A stretch of 41,245 nucleotides of DNA from a virus, in UHGV virus genome UHGV-0086138. One strand, written 5' to 3'. A program made the position numbers and the translations under genes. The notes beneath the pieces are model-generated. The model saw only the letters and a program-made list of their open reading frames with translations, was not told where the DNA came from and ran no database searches. Numbering within the stretch: the first letter of the stretch is position 1; the number at the start of each line of letters is the position of its first letter. Positions 3,569 through 33,318 of the stretch are shown in pieces.

Positions 3569-3585
3569 GTTACCGTTGAGGTAAT
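3569..3585. promoter_or_regulatory. operator-like palindrome GTTACCGTTGAGGTAAT overlapping -10/+1 of leftward early promoter
   Basis: matches ATTACCy-N3-AGGTAAT family; lies between TTGACA promoter and the small ORF start. Confidence 0.55.
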
Positions 3586-3606
3586 AATTATGCGTATCTG
3601 GTTTGA

Positions 3607-3612
3607 TGTCAA
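3607..3612 (-). promoter_or_regulatory. -35 hexamer (TTGACA on minus strand) of leftward early promoter (PL-like)
   Basis: perfect TTGACA, 16-17 bp from AT-rich -10 (TAATTA), flanked by two operator palindromes. Confidence 0.5.
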
Positions 3613-3630
3613 TAGATATGAGTTAAAAAA

Positions 3631-3647
3631 ATTACCCATTAGGTAAT
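3631..3647. promoter_or_regulatory. operator-like palindrome ATTACCCATTAGGTAAT
   Basis: 17-bp inverted repeat upstream of leftward promoter. Confidence 0.6.
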
Positions 3648-3654
3648 CGAATAG

Positions 3655-3682
3655 GCAATAAAAAAGCCGCCAGAAGGCGGCT
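3655..3682 (-). terminator. rho-independent terminator downstream of repressor gene
   Basis: hairpin AGCCGCC-AGAA-GGCGGCT followed by T-run on minus strand. Confidence 0.6.
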
Positions 3683-3703
3683 TACTTACTGAAAAATATG
3701 ATT

Positions 3704-4288
3704 TTATTGTTTGTTTTTTTCGTTCTGGTTGATGACAAATTCAATGTAACTTTCGATCTTTGCTTTCTCGGTTTCGGGTAACAATGCGTAGCGCGAGCGA
3801 TCATAGTTGATGGTCGCAGGGTCGTGCGGGTGAATCAGTAATTCATAGCCGTGACGCCCGAATGCGGATGCAACATTCTCCAGGGTGGAAATGGAAACGC
3901 TGACCTCATTGTTTAACAGGCGGCTGATTGTCACCTGGGCGACGCCGGATGCGCGGTGTAGTTTTCCCTGCGTTGAAAGGTCGCGGCTTTCGCTCATCCA
4001 GCGTTCCAGGTTGTGAGCCGCCAGCTGACCTATATCACTCGGGCCGACAGGCTGAAAACCTTCCTGAGAAAGCGAGCGATCGATATCAAGCCAGTTACGG
4101 GGTTTATTGGCGGCAGCTTCAATTTTTCGCGCAACCTGGTCGCCGATAACCTTCTTGCCAAGAGCCCAGCGGTTTACCAGATTTGCCTGAGTTCCAAGTT
4201 TTTCTGCCATCCGCGTCTGAACACCATTGAATTCACGGTCGATCAAGTCGTTGAGATTTTGCCTGCGGACGTCCTGGATACTTTTCAT
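3704..4288 (-). CDS. prophage repressor with two XRE-type helix-turn-helix regions; no LexA-like S24 peptidase domain evident
   Basis: 194 aa; HTH-like segments near residues 25-45 and 110-135; divergent from Cro-like gene with three operator palindromes in between. Confidence 0.7.
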   Translation of the reverse strand: MKSIQDVRRQNLNDLIDREFNGVQTRMAEKLGTQANLVNRWALGKKVIGDQVARKIEAAANKPRNWLDIDRSLSQEGFQPVGPSDIGQLAAHNLERWMSESRDLSTQGKLHRASGVAQVTISRLLNNEVSVSISTLENVASAFGRHGYELLIHPHDPATINYDRSRYALLPETEKAKIESYIEFVINQNEKNKQ

Positions 4289-4342
4289 TTTCTGGAAAAT
4301 CGCCTCATATATGAATCAGTAGATGATTCAATTTAAAGCAAT

Positions 4343-4359
4343 ATTACCCAACAGGTAAA
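4343..4359. promoter_or_regulatory. operator O1 ATTACCCAACAGGTAAA (repressor/cro intergenic)
   Basis: first of three tandem palindromes between divergent repressor and cro genes. Confidence 0.65.
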
Positions 4360-4360
4360 T

Positions 4361-4377
4361 GCACCTCATAGGTAACT
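4361..4377. promoter_or_regulatory. operator O2 GCACCTCATAGGTAACT
   Basis: degenerate member of same palindrome family, 2 bp from O1. Confidence 0.5.
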
Positions 4378-4390
4378 ATCCTTGATTTTT

Positions 4391-4407
4391 GTTACCTTAT
4401 GGGTGAA
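4391..4407. promoter_or_regulatory. operator O3 GTTACCTTATGGGTGAA within spacer of cro promoter
   Basis: follows TTGATT -35 (4382-4387). Confidence 0.55.
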
Positions 4408-4430
4408 TATTTATTATCTGAAATAAATAT
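4407..4430. promoter_or_regulatory. AT-rich inverted repeat ATATTTATT-N6-AATAAATAT in cro leader
   Basis: 9-bp arms, between cro promoter and RBS. Confidence 0.4.
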
Positions 4431-4442
4431 CAGGCAATAGCT

Positions 4443-4673
4443 ATGAGCGATAACGGACATTTCGATTTCAAAAAGCACTGGCTTGCACTTACTCCGGATG
4501 AGCGTGAAGCCTTCGCACAGGAAGCCGGAACGACGAGTCACTATATCCAGACTCACTTAACAGGTAAGCGCAAAATGCCAGGTAAAGTATTGATGAATGG
4601 GCTTTTTAAAGCCTGTAAAACAAGACAATGGCTGCGCTTAAAAGCAGAACTGGCATACTTCTTCTACTCATGA
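4443..4673 (+). CDS. Cro-like HTH regulator
   Basis: 76 aa; HTH segment; divergent from repressor; followed by intrinsic terminator. Confidence 0.65.
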   Translation: MSDNGHFDFKKHWLALTPDEREAFAQEAGTTSHYIQTHLTGKRKMPGKVLMNGLFKACKTRQWLRLKAELAYFFYS

Positions 4674-4695
4674 TATCCAGCTACAACCCTCTGTA

Positions 4696-4718
4696 GACCG
4701 CCACCCGGCGGTCTTTTC
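4696..4718 (+). terminator. rho-independent terminator after cro
   Basis: hairpin GACCGCC-ACCC-GGCGGTC then TTTTC. Confidence 0.65.
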
Positions 4719-4727
4719 ATATCTATT

Positions 4728-4744
4728 CGTACCTCAAAGGTAAT
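4728..4744. promoter_or_regulatory. operator-like palindrome CGTACCTCAAAGGTAAT
   Basis: located after cro terminator and before TTGATC promoter-like hexamer. Confidence 0.55.
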
Positions 4745-4823
4745 AAAAAACCAAATCTGGTTGATCTTTTTTTTGTGTCAGCACAAAATGACCGTAATCC
4801 CAATACTAATAACAGGGCTTACC

Positions 4824-5024
4824 ATGGAAATCATTACACGTATTGATGCCGCAAAGCGCGGACTTAAACGCTACTACACCGGAAAAACATGTAAGCACGG
4901 ACATGACAGTGAACGCTGGGTTTACAACGGACACTGTGTTGAGTGCACCATGGAATCAAACCGTCGTATCAGGGCAGAGATTAAGCAGATCATGATTAAT
5001 TCCTCCCCACAACATTCAAGCTGA
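4824..5024 (+). CDS. small Cys/His-rich protein in CII-equivalent position
   Basis: ATG 4824 with AGGG RBS; C-x-H...H-C-x-x-C arrangement; function unknown. Confidence 0.45.
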   Translation: MEIITRIDAAKRGLKRYYTGKTCKHGHDSERWVYNGHCVECTMESNRRIRAEIKQIMINSSPQHSS

Positions 5025-5039
5025 TAGCGGAGATTAATC

Positions 5040-5903
5040 ATGAGCAGACATGCAACAGATTGGGCCTGGGAGACAGATCCAGGTAGCTCATCATTAAAGC
5101 TCATACTGCTCTCGATGGCTGACAGAGCCGATGAATATAACCTCTGCTACCCCAGCATAGAACGCCTCGTTAAAGACACTTGCCTGAATAAAAAAACCGT
5201 GCAGGCCGGGCTTATATCGCTCATGAAAATGGGGCTTATTTCAGATACCGGAGAGAGAAAGGGAGCGACAAAAAGAGTGCGGGTTTTCTCTCTTAATATA
5301 ACCAAAAACGGGAACATTAAAGGCAACCGAGAGGGGGGCAATGAACCCGAAAACGGTAATGTTACCGAAAACGGGAATATACCCAAAAACGGGATGTTGA
5401 ATGATCCCAAAAACGGGATGTTGAATGATCCCAAAAACGGGATGTTGAATGATCCCAAAAACGGGATGTTGAATGATCCCAAAAACGGGATCCAGAACCA
5501 GTCATATAACCAGTCATTTAACCAAGAGAGGGAGAGCAGGACAAAAAACGGGGATTCTGTGCATCATGACCCCGGCGCAAACAACGCCGTGATGAATAAC
5601 TTTGTTCCTCCTGGTGGGCCAGGGCAATTAGGCAAATTTGTCATGCATGAACAATGGCAGCCATCAGATGACTTTCTTCGGAAAAGCTCATTGCAGGGGA
5701 TCTACCTGGACAGTCTGCCAACGGCACAGGAACTTGCAGAGTTCAGAATTTACTGGATGGCTGAGGGTAAGGCATACCATCAGGCACAGTGGGAGCAGAA
5801 GCTGGCAAGGCGGCTGCAGATTAGCAGACAGAAGCAATCAACATTACCTGATAACAACGTTCCGCACTGGAACAGCCCTGAAGCATGGGAGGATTTCTTG
5901 TGA
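5040..5903 (+). CDS. replication initiator (lambda O-like role) with N-terminal HTH and internal iteron array
   Basis: 287 aa; N-terminal HTH-type domain; 4 perfect 24-bp direct repeats inside gene (encode PKNGMLND x4); followed by P-like gene. Confidence 0.75.
   Translation: MSRHATDWAWETDPGSSSLKLILLSMADRADEYNLCYPSIERLVKDTCLNKKTVQAGLISLMKMGLISDTGERKGATKRVRVFSLNITKNGNIKGNREGGNEPENGNVTENGNIPKNGMLNDPKNGMLNDPKNGMLNDPKNGMLNDPKNGIQNQSYNQSFNQERESRTKNGDSVHHDPGANNAVMNNFVPPGGPGQLGKFVMHEQWQPSDDFLRKSSLQGIYLDSLPTAQELAEFRIYWMAEGKAYHQAQWEQKLARRLQISRQKQSTLPDNNVPHWNSPEAWEDFL
5347..5491 (+). repeat. iteron-like direct repeats inside replication initiator gene (4 perfect 24-bp units CCCAAAAACGGGATGTTGAATGAT at 5382-5477, flanked by degenerate copies)
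   Basis: perfect tandem units read directly; analogous to ori iterons inside lambda O. Confidence 0.7.
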
Positions 5904-6685
5904 ACAACGTTTTTACCGCGATACAAAACCGTGACGGAGAAGCCCTTTCTCGCATGTCAGGTTATGAGCATCAGTACACCAACAATGACAACGTGGTGAA
6001 CATGTCAGCAGAGAGGCTTGTTGATGCCCTTTTCAAACAGCTGAAACAACTGTTTCCGGCGGCAGTGGTAACCAACCTGAAGACGCCAGAGCAGGAAGTC
6101 GCTGCAAAACAGCAGTGGATTGCTGCGTTTGCCGAAGGTGGGATCCGAACCCGTGAACAGGTTTCTGCTGGTATGCGCCACGCCCGCGCCAGTGAATCTC
6201 CGTTCTGGCCGTCGCCAGGGCAATTCATCAAGTGGTGCAAAGACAGCAAGATGGTTCTTGGCGTCACCATTGACGATGTGATGGCGGAGTTTCACCGGTA
6301 CAGCAAGGAAAAAAGTTTATATCCTGGTAGTCCCGAAAGATTCCCGTGGCGACATCCGGTTATGTACTGGGTCGTATGTGATACCCGCCGTGCAATGTAT
6401 CAGCGCCAGCTTAGCGAGATTGAGGTTGAGAAACATGCGCGCAGGCTGCTCGATGATTGGGCGAAAAAGGTGGCTTCTGGACAGCAGATACCCGATCCGG
6501 TGATCAGCATACAGGCAAAGCCAGAGCCCATGAGTACACCTCCGGACACAGGGAGAGACGTTTACCATCCACCAGGGCGAAGTTTCGGATGCATGCCTAA
6601 CGCCGCCACCCTTGGGGGAATAACACCGGCGCAGTGGCTGATGGAGGAATACAGGCGAGGAAAGGCGGCAGGATTTATCAAGTAA
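5900..6685 (+). CDS. replication protein P-like helicase loader
   Basis: Recalled similarity to lambda P (segment ...GMRHARASESPFWPSPGQFIKWCK vs lambda ...GMRVARRQNRPFLPSPGQFVAWCR); start assigned to GTG 5900 after GGAGG RBS, overlapping O stop (GTGA). Confidence 0.8.
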   Translation: MNNVFTAIQNRDGEALSRMSGYEHQYTNNDNVVNMSAERLVDALFKQLKQLFPAAVVTNLKTPEQEVAAKQQWIAAFAEGGIRTREQVSAGMRHARASESPFWPSPGQFIKWCKDSKMVLGVTIDDVMAEFHRYSKEKSLYPGSPERFPWRHPVMYWVVCDTRRAMYQRQLSEIEVEKHARRLLDDWAKKVASGQQIPDPVISIQAKPEPMSTPPDTGRDVYHPPGRSFGCMPNAATLGGITPAQWLMEEYRRGKAAGFIK

Positions 6686-6690
6686 TACCA

Positions 6691-6710
6691 GCGCGATAGC
6701 GCATTTTTTT
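6691..6710 (+). terminator. weak intrinsic terminator after P-like gene
   Basis: short GC stem (GCGC-GATA-GCGC) followed by T7 run. Confidence 0.4.
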
Positions 6711-6721
6711 ACGCTCAAATA

Positions 6722-6738
6722 ATTACCCATCAGGTAAT
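6722..6738. promoter_or_regulatory. operator-like palindrome ATTACCCATCAGGTAAT
   Basis: after P-gene terminator. Confidence 0.6.
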
Positions 6739-6783
6739 AAAATATTCTAAACTCTATTGATTTCGTGTCTTATGTGGTTTTTA

Positions 6784-6800
6784 ATTACCTCAGAGGTAAA
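6784..6800. promoter_or_regulatory. operator-like palindrome ATTACCTCAGAGGTAAA overlapping RBS of 6803 gene
   Basis: follows TTGATT-17-TTTAAT promoter-like element; AGGT of right half doubles as Shine-Dalgarno. Confidence 0.6.
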
Positions 6801-6802
6801 TC

Positions 6803-7147
6803 ATGAGAAAACAGATGCAGGCTCTTGGTCGACTCAAAACAGGCCAGATGAACAAAACAGAATCTGCGTATTGCCAGCATCTTGAGCAGCGTAAACGTGC
6901 AGGGGAAATCGCCTGGTATCGATTCGAGGGTATCAAGCTGCGGTTAGCTGATAACACGTTCTATACGCCAGATTTCGCTGTGATGCTCGCCACCGGAGAG
7001 ATGGAACTGCACGAAGTGAAAGGTTTCTGGACCGACGACGCCAGGGTGAAAACCAAAGTCGCCGCAGATCAGTATCCGTTCCGAATCATCGGGGTAACGG
7101 TTAAGCCAAAGAAAGCAGGTGGCGGATGGAAAATCGAAGAGTTCTGA
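6803..7147 (+). CDS. DUF1064-family phage protein
   Basis: 114 aa; typical size and motifs of DUF1064 proteins found in phage replication modules. Confidence 0.6.
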   Translation: MRKQMQALGRLKTGQMNKTESAYCQHLEQRKRAGEIAWYRFEGIKLRLADNTFYTPDFAVMLATGEMELHEVKGFWTDDARVKTKVAADQYPFRIIGVTVKPKKAGGGWKIEEF

Positions 7148-7208
7148 ATCGACGATCTTTTTAGTTATCAATGTTATCAATAAGTTATGTGGATAAGCGA
7201 GGGTAAAG

Positions 7209-9939: not shown

Positions 9940-9974
9940 ACCGGTAAAGGTGTTCGCGATAAAGGTAAATATTG

Positions 9975-10313
9975 ATGGCTAAATCAGCAGCAGAGCGCAA
10001 AGCCGCTCAGAGAGCCAGACAAGCTGAATCCGGTGTACGTAAGCTGGAGATTGTGCTTGATGCTCAGGAAATTGAAATGCTGGAGCGGAACTGCGCCGCC
10101 CGGCGCCCTGGTCGAGATCCCTATGAAATGGCCGAGTACATCGCGCTGATGATCCGCCAGGATGATGCCCGGGTGCGCGGGCGTATAAAATCGATCAGCA
10201 GAAAACGTTGCGGTAAGTGCGGCGAGAGAGTTCCAGTTAATTCATGCCCGTGTAATGGTGACTCGCAATGCTGGGTGACTAAAGGCTGGCATGAAACGAA
10301 ATTAATAGTGTGA
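9975..10313 (+). CDS. hypothetical protein with Cys-rich C-terminus
   Basis: ATG 9975 after AAGGT RBS; stop TGA embedded in 14-bp palindrome. Confidence 0.5.
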   Translation: MAKSAAERKAAQRARQAESGVRKLEIVLDAQEIEMLERNCAARRPGRDPYEMAEYIALMIRQDDARVRGRIKSISRKRCGKCGERVPVNSCPCNGDSQCWVTKGWHETKLIV

Positions 10314-10322
10314 CATGTCACG
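10309..10322. repeat. 14-bp palindrome TGTGACATGTCACG (copy 1)
   Basis: perfect palindrome core GTGACATGTCAC; contains stop codon of 9975..10313; upstream of terS. Confidence 0.8.
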
Positions 10323-10395
10323 AGTAGATTATGCATGATGAATTTGATGGGTTTTGAATACTGCCGCCAACTATGGCGGCTTTATTTTGCATGGT

Positions 10396-10424
10396 ACTAT
10401 TACCACAACGGTAACTATTACCAC
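10396..10424 (+). repeat. two 11-bp direct repeats ACTATTACCAC (10396-10406, 10414-10424) just upstream of terS start
   Basis: read directly. Confidence 0.6.
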
Positions 10425-10431
10425 GGTGGTT

Positions 10432-11028
10432 ATGATGCCTGCTGAACCTAAAACCTATAAACGCAAATCAACGCAATTTAAGCCACTAACAGCAATGCAG
10501 GAGGCTTATTGCCAGTCATACATCAAAACGCCTGAAAACCAGACTCAGGCAGCGATTAACGCAGGATTCTCCCCAAATACAGCGGCAGTTAAAGCCAGTG
10601 TCATGATGCGCGATGAACGCATTCAAAAACGGATTGCCGAGCTGATGGAGGAGCGCAACAAACGAATGCGCGTCAGTGCCGATTACGTTCTTATGCGCCT
10701 GGTGGAGATCGACCAGATGGATGTGATCGACATCCTCAACGACGATGGGAGCCTTAAACCAATCCGTGAGTGGCCGAAAATCTGGCGCACTACGCTTAGT
10801 GGCTTTGATCTGTCATCGACCATCATGAACATGAACGAGGATTCGATAGAGACAATCCTCAAAAAAATTAAATGGCCTGACAAGGTGAAGAACCTTGAGC
10901 TGATTGGTAAGCATGTTGATGTCAACGCGTTCAAAGAACGTCTGGATGTTAATGTGAATGTGACAATTGCTGATCGCATAGCAGCAGCCAGGAAGCGACT
11001 CAAAGAACGTCAGGATGGTAATCAGTGA
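10432..11028 (+). CDS. terminase small subunit
   Basis: Precedes large terminase with overlapping stop/start; start placed at ATG 10432 because upstream part of track ORF is low-complexity translation of direct repeats. Confidence 0.65.
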   Translation: MMPAEPKTYKRKSTQFKPLTAMQEAYCQSYIKTPENQTQAAINAGFSPNTAAVKASVMMRDERIQKRIAELMEERNKRMRVSADYVLMRLVEIDQMDVIDILNDDGSLKPIREWPKIWRTTLSGFDLSSTIMNMNEDSIETILKKIKWPDKVKNLELIGKHVDVNAFKERLDVNVNVTIADRIAAARKRLKERQDGNQ

Positions 11029-13145: not shown

Positions 13146-13222
13146 TGGCGTGGCATGCAGGATTCGAACCTGCGACCAACCGCTTAGAAGGCGGTTGCTC
13201 TGTCCAACTGAGCTAATGCCAC
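13146..13222 (-). tRNA. tRNA-Arg (anticodon UCU)
   Basis: Cloverleaf read from reverse complement: 7-bp acceptor stem GTGGCAT/ATGCCAC, D-arm GCTC..GAGC, anticodon stem ACCGC/GCGGT with loop CUUCUAA, T-arm GCAGG-TTCGAAT-CCTGC, 3' CCA encoded. Confidence 0.85.
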
Positions 13223-13543: not shown

Positions 13544-13560
13544 CTTACCTGAAAGGTAAT
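13544..13560. promoter_or_regulatory. operator-like palindrome CTTACCTGAAAGGTAAT upstream of structural operon
   Basis: same motif family, about 90 bp upstream of 13650. Confidence 0.55.
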
Positions 13561-13649
13561 AATTCGTGCGTTAAATGTCAACTGTCTACGATAAATAAAT
13601 CATATGTGGTTAAATTGGTAATAATTTAATTGCGTACGGAGTCATTGAT

Positions 13650-19039: not shown

Positions 19040-21510
19040 TGGCTATCAGTTGGATCCAGCCCAGCTTTGCCGGTGGTGAGATTGGACCGTCGTTGTACGG
19101 GCGTATTGACATGGCGAAGTACCAGGTGGCATTGCGCAAGTGCGATAACTTTATCGTGCGGCAGTATGGCGGCGTTGAGAATCGACCTGGTACGCGTTTT
19201 GTCGGTGCCGCCAAATACCCAAATCGGAAATGCCGCCTGATCCCGTTCCAGTTCTCGACGGTTCAGACCTATGCTCTGGAGTTCGGACACCAGTACATGC
19301 GCGTTATCAAAGATGGTGCGTTGGTGCTGAACAGCAGCAATGTTATTTATGAAATTGCCACGCCATATACTGAAGCCGATCTGTTCCGAATTAAATTCAC
19401 GCAAAGCGCAGACGTGCTTACGCTGGTTCATCCGGCATACCCGCCGAAAGAGTTGCGCCGCTATGCGCATGACAACTGGCAACTGGTTGATGTGGTAACG
19501 AAGAACGGGCCATTTGAAGATATCAATATTGACGAGTCAGTGACGGTTTATGCCAGCGCCAGCACCGGGACAATTACGTTAACGGCAAGCGCCTCTATTT
19601 TTGGCTCGGAGCAGGTAGACAAATTGTTCTATCTGGAACAGCCTGCAGTGGATTCAGTGCCGGTATGGGAAACCAGTAAGAGTACGTCGATTGACGATGT
19701 TCGCCGTGCAGACAGTAACTACTATCGCGCTGTTACAGCAGGTAAAACAGGCACTTTGCGCCCTTCGCATACAGAAGGCACATCATGGGATGGCTGGGGC
19801 GGATCCGGTGATGATGATACCGGCATTGAGTGGGAATATCTGCACAGTGGTTTTGGCATTGCCCGTATCACTGCTGCAAATGGAACTACTGCAACTGCCG
19901 AGGTGATTTCCTATATCCCTTCGCAGATAGTTGGCGAGGATAATGCCAGCTATAAATGGGCTAAATATGCCTGGAACAGTATTAACGGTTATCCTGGCAC
20001 TGTTGTTTATTATCAACAACGTCTTTACTTCGCCGCATCGACTGCGTTCCCTCAGACTATCTGGGCCAGCCGTACTGGGGATTATAAGGATTTTGGCAAA
20101 AGCAATCCTACGCAGGATGACGACAGAATTATCTACACCTATGCCGGGCGTCAGGTTAATGAGATCCGCCACCTGATTGATGTTGGTTCGCTGGTGGCGC
20201 TGACTTCCGGAGGTGAGTACGTCATCACCGGCGACCAGAACAAAGTATTAACCCCATCATCATTTGCATTCAGCTCTCAGGGATCAAATGGCTCGAGCAA
20301 TGTCCCACCAATTGCCGTGGCGAATATTGCTCTGTTCGTCCAGGAGAAAGGCAGTGTTGTCCGTGATCTTGCCTACTCATTCGATGTTGACGGCTATCAG
20401 GGGAACGACCTGACCATCCTTGCCAATCATCTTTTTCAGAAGCACAGCATTGTTGACTGGTGCTTCTCTATTGTCCCTTACTCCAGCGCCTTCTGCATTC
20501 GTGATGACGGTAAATTACTGGTGATGACCTATTTGCGTGATCAGCAGGTTTTTGCATGGGCACCACAATCCAGTACCGGAAAATATGAAAGCACATGCAG
20601 TATCAGCGAAGGCAATGAAGATGCGGTGTATTTCGTCGTTAACCGAACCGTTAACGGGCAAACAGTGAGATACATCGAGCGGCTGTCCAGCCGTTTATTT
20701 ACCAGCGATGAAGATGCTTTCTTTGTTGATTCTGGCCTTAGCTATGATGGAAGAAATACGTCTGACAGAACGATGACCATCACTGGTGGTTCTGGTGAAT
20801 GGGATTACCGTGCGGAATATACAATCAGTGTTTCTGGTGGTGCGTACTTCACCAGTAGTGATGTCGGCGCGCAACTACAGTTCCCTTATACCGGAACTAA
20901 TCCTGATACTGGCGATGAGGTGTCAAAAGAATTACGTTGCGACATTATTTCTGTAACCAGCAATACCGCTGTAGTGGTTCGTGCTAACAGGAACGTCCCG
21001 CCATCCCTCAGGAATGTGGCCACCACGAACTGGCAGATGGCGCGCCGGACATTTGGAGGCCTGTCTCATCTTGAAGGCCAGACCGTAAACATTCTCTCTG
21101 ATGCGAACGTGGAACCACAGAAAGTGGTTTCCGGAGGTGCCGTCACGCTGGAATCTCCGGGGGCTGTAGTGCACATCGGCCTGCCAATAACTGCTGAATT
21201 CGAAACACTGGATATCAACATTAACGGACAGGAAACGCTGCTGGACAAAAAACAGGTGATCCCCTCCGTTACTCTGGTTGTGAATGCCAGTCGCGGCATC
21301 TGGGCGACTACGCCCGGCGGTAAATGGTACGAATATCCACAGCGTGAATTCGAGTTCTACGATGATCCTGTTGATGATGCTACCGGAAAAGTAGAAGTGA
21401 AACTGGACAGTAACTGGGGCAAAAACGGACGTGTAAAAATCCGTCAGCTTGATCCGTTGCCGCTGTCTGTTCTTGCCGTTATTCCTCGCCTTACTGTTGG
21501 GGGATTCTGA
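19039..21510 (+). CDS. tail tubular protein B-like (T7 gp12-like)
   Basis: 823 aa; size and synteny after gp11-like gene. Confidence 0.6.
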   Translation: MAISWIQPSFAGGEIGPSLYGRIDMAKYQVALRKCDNFIVRQYGGVENRPGTRFVGAAKYPNRKCRLIPFQFSTVQTYALEFGHQYMRVIKDGALVLNSSNVIYEIATPYTEADLFRIKFTQSADVLTLVHPAYPPKELRRYAHDNWQLVDVVTKNGPFEDINIDESVTVYASASTGTITLTASASIFGSEQVDKLFYLEQPAVDSVPVWETSKSTSIDDVRRADSNYYRAVTAGKTGTLRPSHTEGTSWDGWGGSGDDDTGIEWEYLHSGFGIARITAANGTTATAEVISYIPSQIVGEDNASYKWAKYAWNSINGYPGTVVYYQQRLYFAASTAFPQTIWASRTGDYKDFGKSNPTQDDDRIIYTYAGRQVNEIRHLIDVGSLVALTSGGEYVITGDQNKVLTPSSFAFSSQGSNGSSNVPPIAVANIALFVQEKGSVVRDLAYSFDVDGYQGNDLTILANHLFQKHSIVDWCFSIVPYSSAFCIRDDGKLLVMTYLRDQQVFAWAPQSSTGKYESTCSISEGNEDAVYFVVNRTVNGQTVRYIERLSSRLFTSDEDAFFVDSGLSYDGRNTSDRTMTITGGSGEWDYRAEYTISVSGGAYFTSSDVGAQLQFPYTGTNPDTGDEVSKELRCDIISVTSNTAVVVRANRNVPPSLRNVATTNWQMARRTFGGLSHLEGQTVNILSDANVEPQKVVSGGAVTLESPGAVVHIGLPITAEFETLDININGQETLLDKKQVIPSVTLVVNASRGIWATTPGGKWYEYPQREFEFYDDPVDDATGKVEVKLDSNWGKNGRVKIRQLDPLPLSVLAVIPRLTVGGF

Positions 21511-29388: not shown

Positions 29389-29389
29389 T

Positions 29390-29761
29390 ATGAACAGAAT
29401 TATATTAATGATTATTCTTATGCTTTTAGTTGTAAAATCTTTTGCAGATACTACCTCACCGTTAATGATTCAGCCTAAAAATGGGGAAACACTGGAGGAT
29501 TCTAAAAAGCATACAATGGAATATTTTGGATGTATAAAAGGGCAGGTCGTAAAATACGCTAAGACAGGAGAAAGTGTTGATTCTATATCCAAAGCTTCGG
29601 TTGTGTCATGCGAGTCGTACATACAAAAGATTGCTGAATCAAATATATACTATTTAAATTCCTCTCAAGACGGTAAGCGGAAATTTATTGGAAGGCTTAA
29701 ATCAGATGGTGAAAATTTAGCAACGAAATTTGCTATGGATGAAAAGCTAAAAAATAAATAG
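29390..29761 (+). CDS. secreted protein with signal peptide (accessory gene)
   Basis: N-terminal hydrophobic signal (MNRIILMIILMLLVVKSFA); strongly AT-rich codon usage; GGGAAG RBS. Confidence 0.5.
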   Translation: MNRIILMIILMLLVVKSFADTTSPLMIQPKNGETLEDSKKHTMEYFGCIKGQVVKYAKTGESVDSISKASVVSCESYIQKIAESNIYYLNSSQDGKRKFIGRLKSDGENLATKFAMDEKLKNK

Positions 29762-29769
29762 GTGACTAC

Positions 29770-30066
29770 ATGCAAGCGATAGGATTCATTGTTTATATCG
29801 TCGTTGGTCTTTTTCAGTTGGCAGCAATTATGGCTGGGCTTGAATCATGGTGGGGATTGCACTGGATAATTGCAGCCCCCATTGCTTTCATCGTGAGCTA
29901 TATTCCATTTGTTGGAGCGATTGTTGGTATGGTTGGCGCTGTGGATGTATGGCGGTGGGAGTGGTGGCAGGCTGGCCTTCTCTTCTTTGGTGGGATCATC
30001 TTTGCTATTGTCTGCGGTGGAATGTCATCATTTTTCGAATGGCTATCATTCAGAAAAGGAACGTGA
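29770..30066 (+). CDS. small integral membrane protein (3 predicted TM helices)
   Basis: 98 aa, W- and G-rich hydrophobic segments; AGGTGA RBS; stop within 14-bp palindrome and followed by terminator. Confidence 0.5.
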   Translation: MQAIGFIVYIVVGLFQLAAIMAGLESWWGLHWIIAAPIAFIVSYIPFVGAIVGMVGAVDVWRWEWWQAGLLFFGGIIFAIVCGGMSSFFEWLSFRKGT

Positions 30067-30075
30067 CATGTCACA
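30062..30075. repeat. 14-bp palindrome CGTGACATGTCACA (copy 3, reverse-complement orientation)
   Basis: contains stop codon of 29770..30066, adjacent to terminator hairpin. Confidence 0.8.
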
Positions 30076-30100
30076 GGCCGCTTTCGCGGCCTTGTTTTTA
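30075..30100 (+). terminator. rho-independent terminator after accessory genes 29390..30066
   Basis: hairpin AGGCCGC-TTTC-GCGGCCT followed by TGTTTTT. Confidence 0.65.
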
Positions 30101-30259
30101 ACGAATGCCACCGCCGCCCGGGCGGGAATCCGCAGAACGCCCACCGCAGCGGGAGCCGTCAGCGGCAGTATCGCTGTCGTGCTGACAACGACCGGCAAAG
30201 GCCTGAGTTGAAGCTACCAGAGACAACAAAACGAACAGTGCAGCAAATGCTTTTTTCAT
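30098..30259 (-). CDS. small secreted peptide candidate
   Basis: 53 aa from ATG 30259: signal-like MKKAFAALFVLLSLVASTQAFA then Gly/Arg-rich tail; weak RBS. Confidence 0.3.
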   Translation of the reverse strand: MKKAFAALFVLLSLVASTQAFAGRCQHDSDTAADGSRCGGRSADSRPGGGGIR

Positions 30260-30352
30260 TGTGACATTTCCATCTATAAGCCACCTCAATGTGGCGTCAA
30301 TGAGTGTAGCACTGACTTTTGTTTCGTCCACAAAAAAGCCCTCGCCGCGGGC

Positions 30353-30877
30353 TTACCAAAACTTGTACCACGGGGATTTATCCTTCAATGGACAATCCTT
30401 CCATCGTGTGGCTAACCATTCATATTCTTTAAAATATGTGTTTATGTTTTCTTTTTCTCTAATAGCTTGTATAAGAGGTAGCGCAATCTGATAGTTATTT
30501 ACAACGGAGCTGTAAAATACTTCCTTAATCATGGTCTCATCATAAGTTTTCCGCTTCACGCTCACAGCCATGCGTTCGTAGAAACCTAGACAGTAAATTA
30601 TTTCTCTCTTCTCTATCTTTTCTTCATCCGTAAGATCAGCCTGCCCATTGCTTGGATACATATAAGAGCGGAATGATTTGTTCGACTCGTGAATGCGGCG
30701 CATAGTAGATAGGCCTTTCTTATAATCTACATCAAACCTGCTTTCACCAAGGAATACTGAAGTGTGTACTTTTCTCGCTGTATTTACATTATAAATAATA
30801 GTAGCGATAGCTATGAACAAGCCAAGCGAAACCGCGACTGCACTTACGATTTGAGCCACAGCCATGGCAAATTGCAT
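30353..30877 (-). CDS. membrane-anchored protein of unknown function (AT-rich accessory gene)
   Basis: N-terminal TM helix then about 140-aa soluble domain; start ambiguous between ATG 30877 and GTG 30892. Confidence 0.5.
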   Translation of the reverse strand: MQFAMAVAQIVSAVAVSLGLFIAIATIIYNVNTARKVHTSVFLGESRFDVDYKKGLSTMRRIHESNKSFRSYMYPSNGQADLTDEEKIEKREIIYCLGFYERMAVSVKRKTYDETMIKEVFYSSVVNNYQIALPLIQAIREKENINTYFKEYEWLATRWKDCPLKDKSPWYKFW

Positions 30878-30910
30878 TTCTTCACTTAACACAAACTGTC
30901 TCCAGACATG

Positions 30911-30933
30911 AAAACGGGGCCTAATGGCCCCGT
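30911..30933 (-). terminator. intrinsic terminator within leader upstream of membrane-protein gene
   Basis: 8-bp GC stem ACGGGGCC-TAAT-GGCCCCGT followed by T-run on minus strand; lies between mini-ORF and gene start. Confidence 0.55.
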
Positions 30934-31020
30934 CATTAAACTATCCGAATGTTAAACGCCTTCGTACTCGTCAAATTTTCTCATGTGGGCTCCTCCTGTA
31001 TCGGTGCCTAATCGCTATGG

Positions 31021-31037
31021 ATCACCCGTAAGGTAAT
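31021..31037. promoter_or_regulatory. operator-like palindrome ATCACCCGTAAGGTAAT
   Basis: upstream of minus-strand mini-ORF/leader and membrane-protein gene. Confidence 0.5.
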
Positions 31038-31081
31038 AGTACTCTATTCACCACCCTGTCTGCAATCGTACAGAATTATTT

Positions 31082-31099
31082 AAAAGCACATCCATGTGC
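31082..31099 (-). terminator. weak terminator downstream of antirepressor gene
   Basis: short hairpin GCACA-TCCA-TGTGC followed by TTTTAAAT on minus strand. Confidence 0.35.
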
Positions 31100-31108
31100 C
31101 ACCGCCCG

Positions 31109-31819
31109 TCAGAAGAACCCTGCCTTGTCGTTGATGTATTCCGCGTGCGTCTGGATATCACGCAGGCATTTGCTCACACCGACGATGTAGCAGAACATGG
31201 TGGTCAGCTCCGCCGCCGCGCCCGATACGTCGTGCCCGTCTTCCTGTAACTGGTTCAGCAGATTCATCAGCAGTGAGTTCTCCGTCAGGCCGAGAACACC
31301 AGACGGCGAGTGAATCAGGCTGCGGTAGCCGGGCTTCAGCGGGGCGCTGTAGGTTTTGTTCTCTATCTTCATTGCCTGCATCACTGCTGATGCTGTGGCG
31401 TTTGCAACCTGGTCGGCAACCATCTTTATGCGTTCTTCCTGCGGGAGCGAGTTTTTAATGTAACTTCCGGTGCGGCGGATCTGAGGAAGAACCTCACCTG
31501 TAACCCATTTACGAAAGCGGTAGGGGATAGTGCCTGGTGTCACTGCGTCGCGGCAGCGGAGGATCAGTGTGTAGAGGCCTGACTCGGAGATGATGTTGAT
31601 CTCTTTTACTCGGCTGTCAAAAATTGCACGATGTTCATGCCCTATGTTGAACATAGACCTTTCATCATCATCCAGTTTTTCAAGTGCTTGGGTGACGTTT
31701 TGGATACGCAGCGCACTACAAACGTCTTGGGCTACAAACCATGGTTGGCCATCGATAATGATGGAACGGATAGGGTTAACAGATTCAAATTTGAAGATGG
31801 CAGTTTGAGCATTAGCCAT
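31109..31819 (-). CDS. antirepressor (Bro-N domain plus C-terminal antirepressor domain)
   Basis: Bro-N-like N-terminus (FKFESVNPIRSIIIDGQPWFVAQDV); ATG 31819 with GGAG RBS; C-terminal domain paralogous to 32969..33226. Confidence 0.75.
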   Translation of the reverse strand: MANAQTAIFKFESVNPIRSIIIDGQPWFVAQDVCSALRIQNVTQALEKLDDDERSMFNIGHEHRAIFDSRVKEINIISESGLYTLILRCRDAVTPGTIPYRFRKWVTGEVLPQIRRTGSYIKNSLPQEERIKMVADQVANATASAVMQAMKIENKTYSAPLKPGYRSLIHSPSGVLGLTENSLLMNLLNQLQEDGHDVSGAAAELTTMFCYIVGVSKCLRDIQTHAEYINDKAGFF

Positions 31820-31975
31820 GGTGGTTATCTCCACTTAGTGATTTTAATCACCACCGCAACGCCAATTACTGGTGGTGAACTGGACAAGGTTGGCGTACCG
31901 GCCTAAGTGGTACCGGCGTCCTTTCGGACCCCTGCCCAGCCCACCATAATTCGGATATAGCTGTGCTTAACGCAT

Positions 31976-31997
31976 AAAAAAACCACGTCTGGCGTGG
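31976..31997 (-). terminator. intrinsic terminator inside antirepressor leader (minus strand)
   Basis: hairpin CCACG-CCAGA-CGTGG followed by T7 on minus strand, about 160 bp upstream of ant start. Confidence 0.5.
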
Positions 31998-32087
31998 TAT
32001 GCGCCACTTAGTAACTCGGGACGCCAATCCCGGCACTGGATTTTGCCAGTACCCGATTACTATGGCACAAGAGGAGTGCGATGTAAA

Positions 32088-32104
32088 TTTACCGCAAAGG
32101 TAAT
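32088..32104. promoter_or_regulatory. operator-like palindrome TTTACCGCAAAGGTAAT at antirepressor promoter
   Basis: overlaps -10/+1 of a putative minus-strand promoter (TTGATT...TTATCAT). Confidence 0.55.
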
Positions 32105-32181
32105 GATAAACGCGAAGAAATATTAAAAATCAACCGTATTTGGTTGGTTGCGTTTAACGCTTGATCACCTGAAAGCAAGAT

Positions 32182-32198
32182 ATTACCTTTAAGGTAAT
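32182..32198. promoter_or_regulatory. operator-like palindrome ATTACCTTTAAGGTAAT
   Basis: 20 bp upstream of the 32218 gene RBS. Confidence 0.6.
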
Positions 32199-32217
32199 GT
32201 TATTGTGAGGAAAAGCA

Positions 32218-32946
32218 ATGGAAGTTTTCTGGATAGTTGTTGGTGTGGTTGCGGTGATTATTTATGTTATCAACCAGAACAAGACTAAGATCTCTGATCG
32301 TACGGTCGTTAATCATAACAAAACGATAAAGACCGAAGATGGGGAGATAACGATTAATCGTACACAGGTGATAGAACACACCTCTACTCAGTTTCAAAAA
32401 ACTGGAGGTAATGCGCCTAATATTTCCGCACCTCCTGCTTATGATAGTGCGGTAATCCAGACATATTATAAACAGCAGGAGTTAGCAAAAGAGAGGCAAC
32501 TGATTCAGCCAAAGCCGTTTACAGCTGAGCTTCCACCTGGAGTGTCAACGCGTCCGGCATATCATGGAAGATTCCCTGGTGATGACATATCGTCTCAGTC
32601 ATCTAAAAAAGCACCTCAGGCAGTATCAGAGCCAGCAAGAATACCTTCTGTATCGCCGCCAAAAGAAGAATCAGCTAACAGAGTTTCAAGTGGTAGCAAG
32701 CAGTGCTTGCGATGCAGAATAAACCTACCATATGAAAAATTCAGGAAATCGTCAAAAAATCCAGATGGATTGACTAAGTGGTGTGCAAGGTGTCTCGATG
32801 GCCCAAAGAATACACGCCATATGAAGTGGTGCCCAATTTGTAATGTCCGCAGAAAACGAACCAGCTTTTACCCTAATAATCAAAATGCGGACGGATTAAT
32901 GGCATGGTGCAAAACGTGCTGGGATGAGCACAAAGCGAAACGATAG
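32218..32946 (+). CDS. membrane-anchored protein with duplicated C-terminal CxxC zinc-ribbon-like motifs
   Basis: N-terminal TM helix; two repeats of C-x2-C ... DGL-x-(K/A)WC-x(2)-C; GAGGA RBS. Confidence 0.5.
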   Translation: MEVFWIVVGVVAVIIYVINQNKTKISDRTVVNHNKTIKTEDGEITINRTQVIEHTSTQFQKTGGNAPNISAPPAYDSAVIQTYYKQQELAKERQLIQPKPFTAELPPGVSTRPAYHGRFPGDDISSQSSKKAPQAVSEPARIPSVSPPKEESANRVSSGSKQCLRCRINLPYEKFRKSSKNPDGLTKWCARCLDGPKNTRHMKWCPICNVRRKRTSFYPNNQNADGLMAWCKTCWDEHKAKR

Positions 32947-32968
32947 GCCGCTCTTGCGGCCTTTAAAT

Positions 32969-33226
32969 TTACCGGGTTTGTTTTCGTAATTGTTCGGCAC
33001 AATAGTCGAGATGTGTTTGCAGATCCCGCATAGACATCTGTGACCTGGTGACGTAGTTAATCAGTGCAGTCAGTTCGGCAAGTGGGCCATCGACATTAAA
33101 TCCATCCTTATCGAGATCCCGGAGTAATTTCATCAAGTGCGATCCCTCCACCAGTGATCTGACGCCTCCCGGCGTGTGAATCCTTTCGGTAAATCCGTCT
33201 TCCAGTGGATAGTGATACTGCTGCAT
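32969..33226 (-). CDS. small antirepressor-domain protein (paralog of Ant C-terminal domain), LexA-box controlled
   Basis: ATG 33226 with GGAG RBS; 86 aa aligns with C-terminal part of the 31109..31819 product; near-consensus LexA box lies upstream, which argues against the track start at 33349. Confidence 0.55.
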   Translation of the reverse strand: MQQYHYPLEDGFTERIHTPGGVRSLVEGSHLMKLLRDLDKDGFNVDGPLAELTALINYVTRSQMSMRDLQTHLDYCAEQLRKQTR

Positions 33227-33245
33227 CTTATCTTCTCCATACGAT

Positions 33246-33265
33246 AACTGTATATTTATACAGTA
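33246..33265. promoter_or_regulatory. LexA (SOS) box AACTGTATATTTATACAGTA
   Basis: CTGT-N8-ACAG with AT-rich spacer, 18 of 20 matches to consensus TACTGTATATATATACAGTA; about 20 bp upstream of the 33226 start. Confidence 0.7.
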
Positions 33266-33301
33266 ACAAATAATTTGTTTGCTATCCAGCACGTTTTGCA
33301 A

Positions 33302-33318
33302 ATCACCTGAAAGGTAAT
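33302..33318. promoter_or_regulatory. operator-like palindrome ATCACCTGAAAGGTAAT
   Basis: in divergent region between small antirepressor gene and tailspike gene. Confidence 0.55.

What the first reader, a model, noticed from the sequence alone, without database searches (positions are those of the whole stretch)
3569..33318. Genome-wide distribution of the same operator palindrome at nearly every transcription unit (stoperator-like regulon)
Beyond the immunity switch, the ATTACCy-N3-AGGTAAT palindrome recurs at least ten more times, always intergenic: 3569, 3631 (flanking a TTGACA leftward promoter), 4728 (after cro terminator), 6722 and 6784 (in front of the DUF1064 operon, overlapping its RBS), 13544 (upstream of portal/structural genes), 31021, 32088, 32182 (antirepressor and accessory genes) and 33302 (tailspike/small antirepressor divergent region). 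The recurrent layout is terminator, then operator, then promoter, then gene. This suggests one repressor directly silences early, structural and accessory operons, which is unusual for a lambdoid immunity system and resembles the distributed operators of P1 or mycobacteriophage L5. Because the right half-site often supplies the AGGT Shine-Dalgarno, an RNA-level hairpin/translational role is an alternative.
Basis: seen in the sequence. Interest (0 to 1): 0.85.

Follow-up and report, generated by a model that had tools for sequence, protein, structure and literature searches.

The report
Dispersed repressor operators in phiV10-like prophage
A 17-bp palindrome, best explained as the binding site of this prophage's master repressor, sits at about a dozen promoter regions across a phiV10/epsilon15-type prophage. 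The feature is real and well organised, but it is typical of this phage genus and is already annotated in phage epsilon15.

Summary
ATTACC-N5-GGTAAT occurs 12 times at one mismatch or fewer, about 0.1-0.5 expected. All 12 lie in the ~8% of the prophage that is non-coding.

The window is a phiV10/epsilon15-type (Uetakevirus) prophage. Its repressor is a homolog of the crystallised tetrameric SPC32H Rep (E = 4e-42) and is paired with a LexA-controlled Ant.

The same half-sites sit at the same syntenic places in five relatives whose Rep is only 42-78% identical but keeps an invariant recognition helix. The epsilon15 GenBank record already marks seven such dispersed sites as repressor-binding.

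Most sites are fused to promoters. In five cases the last two bases of the -10 hexamer are the operator's first two bases. Two of these promoters also carry a second operator exactly 62 bp upstream.

Deviations from the palindrome are never compensated (0 of 16), which rules out an RNA stem.

So this is a directly repressed multi-promoter regulon. It works like P1 C1 operators, not like L5 stoperators, and it is not new.

Side finds:
- a second dispersed palindrome (AACCAWATNTGGTT);
- an isrK/C4 RNA-Ant module;
- operators at mosaic joints.

The parts
3704..4288 (-). rep: master repressor (194 aa), N-terminal HTH + middle HTH-like domain + C-terminal tetramerisation region
   Evidence: phmmer to PDB 5D50_A (SPC32H Repressor) E=4e-42 over residues 1-190. 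Pfam HTH_3/HTH_26, no peptidase S24. 100% identical to phiV10 and vB_EcoP_ZX5 Rep.
3569..3585 (.). OL proximal operator, overlaps the last 2 nt of the PL -10 (AATTAT 3589-3584, -35 TTGACA 3612-3607, minus strand)
3631..3647 (.). OL distal operator, 62 bp from the proximal one, 18 bp upstream of the PL -35, next to a T-rich tract
   Evidence: the 62-bp spacing is conserved in the relatives
4343..4407 (.). Tripartite switch region between rep and the cro-like gene: operators 4343-4359, 4361-4377 (weak) and 4391-4407 (inside PR, -35 TTGATT 4384-4389)
   Evidence: three sites with 17 + 30/31 bp spacing; the alignment covers four Rep clades, and phiV10 shows the same three sites
4728..4744 (.). Weak operator (left half degenerate, right half GGTAAT invariant) after the cro terminator 4695-4714, 16 bp upstream of a conserved promoter-like element TTGATC(4761-4766)-17-CAAAAT for the replication genes
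6722..6738 (.). Distal operator of the DUF1064/middle-operon promoter, 18 bp upstream of the -35 TTGATT (6757-6762)
6784..6800 (.). Proximal operator fused to the -10 TTTAAT (6780-6785); also covers the RBS of the DUF1064 gene (ATG 6803)
10399..10433 (.). Tandem operators 10399-10415 and 10417-10433, directly after terminator 10363-10380. The first is fused to an extended -10 TGgTACTAT (10392-10400). terS starts at 10435 (or 10432).
   Evidence: conserved in SPC32H, epsilon15 and Tyrion
13544..13560 (.). Operator between the terminase and portal modules. It overlaps a leftward promoter-like site (TAGACA-18-AATTAT 13588-13559) that points at tRNA 13222-13149. It lies ~45 bp upstream of the conserved box-2 element in front of gp3/portal.
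31021..31037 (.). Operator fused to a leftward promoter-like site (TTGCAG 31065-31060, 18 nt, TACTAT 31041-31036) upstream of the DUF4760 gene. It lies inside a cassette that phiV10 lacks.
32088..32104 (.). Operator abutting the -35 (TTTACA 32087-32082) of the leftward promoter that starts the isrK-like RNA (32052-31976), C4 antisense RNA (31951-31868) and the Bro-N/Ant-fusion gene (31834-31109). Homology with phiV10 breaks inside this operator.
32182..32198 (.). Perfect operator 20 bp upstream of the ATG of orf242 (32218-32946; HNH/Lar-like C-terminus), inside a cassette that phiV10 lacks
33302..33318 (.). Operator in the divergent ant/tailspike region. It abuts the -35-like TTGCAA (33301-33296) of the leftward ant promoter and lies ~50 bp upstream of the tailspike promoter-like element (box 2 33344-33357, TAGAAT 33368-33373).
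32969..33229 (-). ant: small antirepressor (86 aa), with a perfect LexA box CTGTATATTTATACAG at 33248-33263 in its promoter
   Evidence: PDB 5D50_E E=6e-46; LexA box; conserved
4443..4673 (+). cro-like small regulator (76 aa), first gene of PR, followed by its own terminator
   Evidence: phrog_35 transcriptional repressor E=5e-12; 58-84% identical across the genus, with an invariant AGTTSHYIQ segment

Best explanation
The palindromes are operators of the prophage master repressor Rep (3704-4288), a homolog of the tetrameric SPC32H Rep.

Genome layout. The phage genome is cut by terminators into many short transcription units, each with its own sigma-70-type promoter. In a lysogen Rep is inferred to switch most of them off directly.

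Proposed modes of action (all inferred from position):
- Promoter occlusion. At PL, the DUF1064 promoter, the terS promoter, the leftward 31021 promoter and probably the leftward 13544 promoter, the operator starts at the last two bases of the -10 hexamer. It therefore covers about -8 to +9.
- A second operator exactly 62 bp upstream, centred near -62 beside an A/T-rich UP-like tract, at PL and the DUF1064 promoter. One tetramer, which carries two DNA-binding units, could hold both sites.
- An operator in the PR spacer.
- Operators abutting the -35 at the two antirepressor promoters. The sign of regulation there is uncertain.

Induction. When LexA is cleaved, Ant is made and takes the Rep tetramer apart, so all units are released together.

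Shown here: site enrichment, intergenic restriction, promoter fusion, genus-wide conservation, Rep/Ant homology.
Inferred: Rep binding to each site, the mode of repression, looping.
For: Enrichment and placement:
- 12 sites with at most 1 mismatch, all in the 7.7% of non-coding DNA, against about 0.1-0.5 expected.
- The same palindrome occurs three times between the divergent rep and cro-like genes, which is the classical operator position.

Rep/Ant homology:
- Rep matches PDB 5D50_A at E=4e-42 and Ant matches 5D50_E at E=6e-46.
- According to PMC9638917, SPC32H Rep binds palindromic DNA sites as a tetramer, the paired DNA-binding domains come from different dimers, and Ant disrupts the tetramer.
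- PMC9986798 describes two DNA-binding ends about 100 A apart and a looping-type tetramerisation domain.

Conservation:
- Five relatives with Rep 42-100% identical carry TTACC-N5-GGTAA at the same syntenic places: 13-18 sites each against about 0.5 expected for Tyrion, BUCT711 and SPC32H, and for phiV10 and epsilon15 an excess at up to 2 mismatches (33-36 against about 10-11 expected).
- The recognition-helix segment N36-W41 is invariant.
- Half-site columns are invariant in 83-92% of cases, against 26-47% for other intergenic columns and 10-40% for spacer columns.
- The promoter-operator fusion and the 62-bp pair spacing are conserved in 11 of 12 pairs across six genomes.

Prior annotation and experiment:
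- The epsilon15 record annotates seven orthologous sites as protein_bind 'repressor/lysogeny'.
- In vB_EcoP_ZX5, whose Rep is identical, Rep over-expression cut endolysin and holin mRNA by 99.99% and 99.97% and abolished free phage (PMC9782041).
Against: - There is no binding or footprint data for any dispersed site in this or any relative that I could read. The primary SPC32H and epsilon15 papers are not in the library.
- Several sites do not overlap a core promoter: 4728, 6722 and 3631 lie upstream, and 13544 and 33302 lie 45-60 bp upstream of the conserved structural-gene promoter elements.
- Promoters are consensus predictions only. The scan finds no more promoter-like sites than in shuffles.
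- A Rep site abutting the ant promoter is hard to reconcile with simple repression, because induction needs Ant to be made while Rep is still bound.
- The lysis cassette of this window has no operator, although phiV10 and SPC32H have one there.
- The ZX5 over-expression effect could be indirect.
- The co-variation test was uninformative, because all Rep clades use the same half-site.
Confidence: 0.8

Rival explanations
1. The palindromes act at the RNA level: they form hairpins in the mRNA that mask the Shine-Dalgarno sequence or affect stability or processing.
For: - The sites are inverted repeats.
- Two of them (6784, and perhaps 10417) include the RBS of the next gene.
- Predicted hairpins reach -7 to -8 kcal/mol at 2 of 15 sites.
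Against: - There are 16 one-sided deviations from the palindrome and 0 compensatory ones. Internal C-A mismatches at 31021 and 33302 are conserved.
- Most hairpins are only -1 to -5 kcal/mol.
- Distal sites 3631 and 6722 lie upstream of the -35, so they are not transcribed from the promoter they flank.
- The sites serve units on both strands.
- Three copies lie in the divergent rep/cro promoter region.
- No Rfam family covers them.
Confidence: 0.03
2. The dispersed sites work mainly as roadblocks to elongating RNA polymerase, as true stoperators do. They would back up the upstream terminators rather than block initiation.
For: - Sites at 4728, 6722 and 10399/10417 lie 10-35 bp downstream of terminators (4-bp stem at 6700-6711, read).
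- In epsilon15, SPC32H and BUCT711 a third PL operator follows a leader hairpin and has no obvious promoter.
- A tetramer bound at +1 to +35 in front of terS would also stop read-through.
Against: - Conserved -35/-10 elements are fused in register to most sites.
- The sites are symmetric, so they cannot show the orientation dependence that defines stoperators (PMC9283540).
- None lies in the many short gene junctions of the 16-kb structural block.
Confidence: 0.12
3. The dispersed copies are bound chiefly by another phage regulator, and Rep matters only at the switch. Candidates are the cro-like protein 4443-4673 or the Cys-rich regulator 9972-10313. That regulator could, for example, shut off or time lytic transcription.
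For: - Cro-type proteins usually share operators with their repressor.
- Both candidate proteins are well conserved across the genus (58-84% and 74-79% identity), as the motif is.
Against: - The dispersed sites match the consensus as well as or better than the switch sites. There is no sequence basis for Rep to ignore them.
- A second dispersed palindrome (box 2) exists that could be the target of those other regulators.
- Shared binding would add to Rep control, not replace it.
Confidence: 0.05

Closest known systems
Salmonella phage epsilon15 (type Uetakevirus): 'protein_bind repressor/lysogeny' features in GenBank AY150271.2
   Same: - Same genus, and a homologous repressor (42% identity).
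- Same TTACC-N5-GGTAA core.
- The seven annotated sites are orthologous to the window's sites before terS, before gp3/portal, between ant and tailspike, at PL and before the middle operon.
   Different: - The epsilon15 annotation is a prediction and lists 7 sites. It omits the three switch sites, the proximal middle-operon site, and the sites before the lysis cassette and int.
- The window has extra sites in accessory cassettes (31021, 32182) and lacks the lysis-cassette site.
- The spacers are AT-rich in epsilon15 and mixed in the window.
Salmonella phage SPC32H Rep-Ant system (PDB 5D4Z, 5D50)
   Same: - Rep and Ant are clear homologs (E=4e-42 and 6e-46).
- ant has a LexA box.
- SPC32H carries the same operators at the same places.
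- Rep is reported to bind palindromic sites as a tetramer and to be taken apart by Ant (PMC9638917).
   Different: - The published work, as far as I could read it second-hand, concerns the protein mechanism and not the genome-wide operator set.
- PMC9986798 states that the structural mechanism of repression 'has not been extensively characterized'.
- The window also has a second, Bro-N-fused Ant under isrK/C4-type RNAs.
Phage P1 C1 repressor with many dispersed operators, including Op51 in front of the c4-icd-ant immI operon (own knowledge: Heinrich, Velleman and Schuster 1995; Lobocka et al. 2004)
   Same: - One repressor is inferred to control many scattered operons directly.
- One operator sits at the promoter of a C4-antisense-RNA + antirepressor module.
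   Different: - P1 operators are asymmetric 17-mers bound by an unrelated C1 protein.
- In P1 the late genes are controlled indirectly through Lpa, whereas here the terS promoter itself carries operators.
- No sequence relationship was tested or is claimed.
Mycobacteriophage L5-type stoperators
   Same: Many repressor sites are distributed over the whole genome in short intergenic spaces (PMC9283540).
   Different: - L5 sites are asymmetric 13-mers. Their orientation follows the direction of transcription and is required for function.
- They are bound by a monomer with two DNA-binding domains, and they stop elongation.
- Here the sites are symmetric, promoter-associated and matched to a tetrameric HTH repressor.
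Streptomyces phage phiC31 conserved inverted repeats (CIRs) bound by the c repressor (own knowledge: Ingham et al. 1994; Smith et al. 1999)
   Same: A 17-bp inverted repeat is found both at the repressor gene and in many intergenic regions near promoters and terminators across the genome.
   Different: The repressor family, host and promoter type are unrelated. This comparison comes from memory and was not checked with the tools.
Lambda CI/Cro switch
   Same: - The repressor and cro-like genes are divergent and separated by a tripartite operator.
- There are additional operators at PL.
   Different: - Rep has no S24 autocleavage domain.
- Induction is by a LexA-controlled antirepressor.
- Operators are not confined to OL/OR.
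- Transcription units are separated by terminators and have their own promoters, instead of an N/Q antitermination cascade. That last point is inferred.

Membership tests
Uetakevirus (epsilon15/SPC32H-type) Rep-operator regulon | Rep homolog: N-terminal HTH, middle dimerisation domain, C-terminal tetramerisation/Ant-binding domain | tested here: met
   5D50_A E=4e-42, residues 1-190 aligned to 2-197. Two HTH-type Pfam hits, no S24.
Uetakevirus (epsilon15/SPC32H-type) Rep-operator regulon | Cognate small Ant under LexA control, divergent from the tailspike gene | tested here: met
   5D50_E E=6e-46. Perfect LexA box 33248-33263, conserved in 6 genomes.
Uetakevirus (epsilon15/SPC32H-type) Rep-operator regulon | ATTACC-N5-GGTAAT palindrome in three copies between rep and the cro-like gene | tested here: met
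   4343, 4361, 4391. The alignment shows the same layout in four Rep clades, and phiV10 has the same three sites.
Uetakevirus (epsilon15/SPC32H-type) Rep-operator regulon | Further copies at syntenic dispersed positions (terS, gp3/portal, ant-tailspike, PL, middle operon), as annotated in epsilon15 | tested here: met
Uetakevirus (epsilon15/SPC32H-type) Rep-operator regulon | Rep protein physically binds these sites and represses the adjacent promoters | not testable with these tools
   Only indirect evidence: Rep over-expression in ZX5 silences the lysis genes, and SPC32H Rep binds palindromic sites (second-hand).
Mycobacteriophage L5-type stoperators | Asymmetric 13-bp site | tested here: not met
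   17-bp hyphenated palindrome with both halves conserved
Mycobacteriophage L5-type stoperators | Site orientation correlated with, and required for, blocking the direction of transcription | tested here: not met
   The sites are symmetric. The only asymmetry (A at position 11) has the same plus-strand orientation at leftward and rightward units.
Mycobacteriophage L5-type stoperators | Monomeric repressor with HTH plus 'Stoperator' domain | tested here: not met
   Rep is a homolog of the tetrameric SPC32H Rep
Mycobacteriophage L5-type stoperators | Sites without a promoter that stop elongation | tested here: inconclusive
   Most sites are fused to promoter-like elements. 4728 and the terS pair could also block read-through. 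There are no functional data.
P1 C1 dispersed operators | Asymmetric 17-bp ATTGCTCTAATAAATTT-type operator and a C1-family protein | tested here: not met
   The motif is a different, symmetric sequence. Rep matches XRE-type HTH families. The P1 consensus is from own knowledge.
P1 C1 dispersed operators | Repressor operator at the promoter of a c4-RNA/ant immunity module | tested here: met
   Operator 32088-32104 abuts the promoter of isrK (63.5 bits), C4 (66 bits) and Bro-N/Ant. This is a functional analogy only.
Lambda-type CI immunity | S24 peptidase autocleavage domain; operators confined to OL and OR | tested here: not met
   No S24 domain. At least 9 operators lie outside the PL and PR regions.

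The most novel reading that the evidence does not exclude
Rep is not only a simple occluder, and its sites fall into positional classes with different logic.

- Pairs centred at about -62 and +1 let a single trans-mode tetramer clamp a promoter in a 62-bp micro-loop.
- Single sites abutting the -35 (centre about -44) at the two antirepressor promoters, and perhaps at the rep promoter, act positively or neutrally. Ant would then be made only when Rep is present and LexA is gone.
- The palindromic operators also serve as recombination joints through which 'operator-promoter-gene-terminator' cassettes are swapped between phages.
Probability: 0.2. Interest if true: 0.55.

Novelty: already known. 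Interest (0 to 1): 0.3.

Why it matters
It matters mostly for annotation and for engineering.
- PhiV10-type prophages are common in E. coli, including O157, and are used as reporter and biocontrol phages.
- Their public records carry no operator annotation.
- The one recent functional paper on an identical repressor (ZX5, 2022) still called its mode of action a mystery.
- A map of about 15 operators with a clear promoter-fusion rule tells where Rep should act. It also suggests that these phages control most transcription units directly rather than by an antitermination cascade.
- It gives ready-made tightly repressible promoter modules.

It does not open a new kind of biology. The same sites are already marked in epsilon15, and the Rep/Ant proteins are structurally characterised.

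Tried and rejected
1. Primary papers. I tried to read Kropinski 2007 on epsilon15, Kim and Ryu 2013 and Kim et al. 2016 on SPC32H, and Lobocka 2004 on P1. None is held. Prior art therefore rests on the epsilon15 GenBank features and second-hand descriptions.

2. Co-variation test. I asked whether heteroimmune relatives carry a different palindrome at the same places. The test was uninformative, because all four Rep clades (42-100% identity) keep the same half-site and the same recognition helix.

3. RNA-hairpin reading. Rejected. Rfam finds nothing at the sites.

4. De novo palindrome enumeration. TTACC-N5-GGTAA is the top hyphenated palindrome in the window, phiV10 and SPC32H. Loci L002, L004 and L005 were not available to scripts, so they were scanned with the DNA search instead.

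5. A mis-spaced pattern for the second element gave zero hits. It was corrected.

6. The promoter scans are no richer than shuffles. Promoter calls therefore rest on conservation and register, not on the scan.

7. I could not place the rep (PRM-like) promoter with any confidence.

8. I did not scan a host genome for the motif. The collection scan needs 14 specified bases and the motif has 12.

Full report
**What the window is.** The window is 96-98% identical over long stretches to Escherichia phage phiV10 and its relatives, and more distantly related to Salmonella phage epsilon15 (genus Uetakevirus). It is an integrated copy. The sequence ATTGAGTGGGAGTGATT at 39512-39528 differs by one base from the attP core reported for phiV10, epsilon15 and ZX5. 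Host DNA follows it. The integrase end lies outside the window.

**Check of the observation.**
None of 100 shuffles reaches that number.
- The true consensus is the symmetric ATTACC-N5-GGTAAT.
- Twelve sites match it with at most one mismatch: 3569, 3631, 4343, 6722, 6784, 10399, 10417, 13544, 31021, 32088, 32182 and 33302.
- None of these sites contains a coding base, although only 7.7% of the prophage is non-coding in my gene map. The chance of that is about 4e-14.
- Four further 2-mismatch hits lie inside genes and look like chance.
- Site 4728 has 2 mismatches, but it is intergenic and conserved.
- The rep-cro region has two more weak copies, at 4361 and 4391.
- An unbiased count of all hyphenated palindromes puts TTACC-N5-GGTAA first in the window, in phiV10 and in SPC32H.

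**The proteins.**
- The ORF 3704-4288 (minus strand) matches the repressor of Salmonella phage SPC32H (PDB 5D50 chain A) at E = 4e-42 over its whole length.
- It has two HTH-type domains and no S24 peptidase domain.
- It is 100% identical to the repressors of phiV10 and vB_EcoP_ZX5.
- The 86-aa ORF 32969-33229 (minus strand) matches the SPC32H antirepressor (5D50 chain E) at E = 6e-46.
- A perfect LexA box at 33248-33263 precedes that ORF.
- According to PMC9638917, SPC32H Rep binds its palindromic sites as a tetramer. The paired DNA-binding domains come from different dimers, and tetrameric Ant breaks the Rep tetramer.
- PMC9986798 describes two DNA-binding ends about 100 A apart and a looping-type tetramerisation domain. 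It notes that the mechanism of repression has not been characterised in detail.

**Conservation.**
- PhiV10, Enterobacter phage Tyrion (Rep 78% identical), Klebsiella phage BUCT711 (45%), epsilon15 and SPC32H (42%) all carry TTACC-N5-GGTAA.
- At up to 1 mismatch, Tyrion, BUCT711 and SPC32H have 13-18 hits each against about 0.5 expected. PhiV10 and epsilon15 were scanned at up to 2 mismatches and have 36 and 33 hits against about 10-11 expected.
- The sites are at the same syntenic places: before terS, before gp3/portal, between ant and the tailspike gene, at PL, in the switch, after the cro-like gene, and before the middle operon.
- Except in the window, there are also sites before the lysis cassette and before int.
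- The Rep segment N36-L-V-N-R-W41 is invariant in all clades. That explains why the half-site has not changed. It also means a co-variation test cannot be done.
- In four alignments of orthologous intergenic regions, half-site columns are invariant in 83-92% of cases. Other columns are invariant in 26-47% and spacer columns in 10-40%.

**Prior art.** The epsilon15 GenBank record AY150271.2 already carries seven protein_bind features labelled 'repressor / lysogeny', at 12, 2931, 19895, 32479, 32554, 32616 and 35906. These are orthologs of the window's sites at terS, gp3/portal, ant-tailspike, PL and the middle operon. The idea of a dispersed repressor regulon in this genus is therefore on public record as a prediction. 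The phiV10 record has no such features. The 2022 ZX5 paper does not mention them.

**Anatomy.** The sites fall into positional classes.
- *Fused to the -10.* The last two bases of the -10 hexamer are the first two bases of the operator.
  - PL: AATTAT|TACC, with -35 TTGACA.
  - DUF1064/middle promoter: TTGATT-17-TTTAAT|TACC.
  - terS promoter: an extended -10, TGgTACTAT|TACC, directly after a terminator and followed by a second operator 18 bp on.
  - A leftward promoter at 31021: TTGCAG-18-TACTAT|TACC.
  - A leftward one at 13544: TAGACA-18-AATTAT|TACC. It points at a minus-strand tRNA at 13222-13149.
- *Distal partners.* At PL and the middle promoter a second operator lies 18 bp upstream of the -35 beside an A/T tract. 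It is exactly 62 bp from the proximal one. That spacing holds in 11 of 12 pairs in six genomes; the other pair is 63 bp. It places the two centres near -62 and +1.
- *In the PR spacer.* This is site 4391.
- *Abutting a -35.*
  - Site 33302 sits next to TTGCAA of the ant promoter.
  - Site 32088 sits next to TTTACA-17-TG-CATAGT. The predicted start of that promoter coincides with the 5' end of an isrK-like RNA.
- *Upstream weak site.* Site 4728 lies 16 bp upstream of a conserved TTGATC-17-CAAAAT element for the replication genes.

**The RNA alternative.**
- Among 15 sites there are 16 one-sided departures from the palindrome and no compensatory ones.
- The hairpins are mostly -1 to -5 kcal/mol.
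- The distal sites lie upstream of the promoters they flank.
- Only 6784, and perhaps 10417, include an RBS.
- I reject this reading.

**Stoperators.** As defined for L5-type phages, stoperators are asymmetric, orientation-dependent, bound by a monomer, and act on elongation (PMC9283540). None of the testable features is met here. A secondary roadblock role for the post-terminator sites cannot be excluded.

**Best explanation.**
- Rep is inferred to repress many separately promoted, terminator-bounded transcription units directly.
- It would do so mainly by sitting on the -10/+1 region.
- At two promoters a second site 62 bp upstream could be held by the second DNA-binding unit of the same tetramer.
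- In ZX5, over-expression of the identical Rep lowered endolysin and holin mRNA by 99.99% and 99.97%. That is consistent with the model but indirect.
- Weak points are the lack of binding data, the purely predicted promoters, and the sites at the antirepressor promoters, where simple repression would hinder induction.
- I put 0.8 on 'these are Rep operators', and somewhat less on the details.

**Comparison.**
- The closest known system is the same one in epsilon15 and SPC32H.
- Functionally it resembles P1 C1 with its scattered operators, down to an operator at a C4-RNA/ant module. It also resembles the phiC31 conserved inverted repeats. Both comparisons come from my own knowledge.
- It is not a lambda-type CI system.

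**Verdict.** It is of modest interest, mainly for annotation. The positional rules and the side observations below could deserve a small experimental follow-up.

Noticed in passing
window 4749-4762, 13598-13611, 32132-32145, 33344-33357, 37529-37542; weaker 6768-6779 and 3592-3603: There is a second dispersed palindrome-like element, AACCAWATNTGGTT ('box 2'; core CCATATNTGGTT).
- It gives 29 strand hits at up to 2 mismatches against 10.9 expected.
- Apart from one 1-mismatch hit inside a gene (3407-3418), the loci with at most 1 mismatch are intergenic, at or next to promoter-like elements of the replication, portal, tailspike and lysis units.
- It is conserved in epsilon15, SPC32H, Tyrion and BUCT711. 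It is absent from the rep-cro switch.
- Its binder is unknown. Candidates are the cro-like protein and the Cys-rich regulator 9972-10313.
- It may mark a second, possibly activating, regulon.
   Followed up: partly
window 31868-32052 (minus strand) and 31109-31834 (minus strand): Rfam finds an isrK-like RNA (31976-32052, 63.5 bits) and a C4 antisense RNA (31868-31951, 66 bits) in tandem upstream of a Bro-N protein.
- The C-terminal 80 residues of that protein are homologous to the small SPC32H-type Ant (5D50_E E=1e-13; phrog_450).
- The prophage therefore has two antirepressors with the same Rep-binding module. One is LexA-controlled and one sits behind a P1 immI-like RNA module.
   Followed up: partly
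window 32088-32104 vs phiV10 (L001) 20496-20512; cassettes 30121-31097 and 32094-32968: Homology with phiV10 breaks inside the 32088 operator, and the 5-bp spacer is the reverse complement (GCAAA against TTTGC).
- The two window-specific cassettes (DUF4760 gene; orf242 with an HNH/Lar-like end) each bring their own operator (31021, 32182).
- The palindromic operators may therefore act as joints for module exchange.
- These accessory genes look Rep-repressed rather than lysogen-expressed.
   Followed up: partly
window 13149-13222 (minus strand): A tRNA gene (73 bits) lies between the terminase and portal modules, followed by a strong minus-strand terminator at 13102-13067. Relatives annotate a tRNA-Arg in this region. 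It lies downstream of the leftward operator-fused promoter-like site at 13588-13559.
   Followed up: no
window 4418-4433: A LexA-like palindrome, CTGAAATAAATATCAG, lies immediately downstream of the PR -10. It is present in the phiV10 and Tyrion clade and absent from the epsilon15, SPC32H and BUCT711 clade. It could be a second LexA input or another regulator's site.
   Followed up: partly
window 5390-5481: Four tandem 24-bp repeats (TGGGATCATTCAACATCCCGTTTT on the minus strand) lie inside the DnaT-like replication gene 5040-5903. They are probably origin iterons. The terminator scan reports them as hairpins.
   Followed up: no
window 10310-10321: A perfect 12-bp palindrome, GTGACATGTCAC, spans the stop codon of the Cys-rich regulator gene, just upstream of the terminator and the terS promoter. 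It is conserved in SPC32H.
   Followed up: no
window 37423-37583: The region upstream of the lysis cassette has been replaced, together with the O-antigen-modification gene (a hexapeptide-repeat acyltransferase, 36485-37423). It lacks the Rep operator that phiV10, epsilon15, SPC32H and Tyrion have there, but it keeps box 2.
   Followed up: partly
all operator sites in the window: There is a slight asymmetry in the operators. Position 11 (just before GG) is A in 11 of 13 sites, but the mirror position 7 is T in only 5 of 13. The orientation is the same on the plus strand whatever the direction of the adjacent unit. The asymmetry is not seen in epsilon15 or Tyrion.
   Followed up: no
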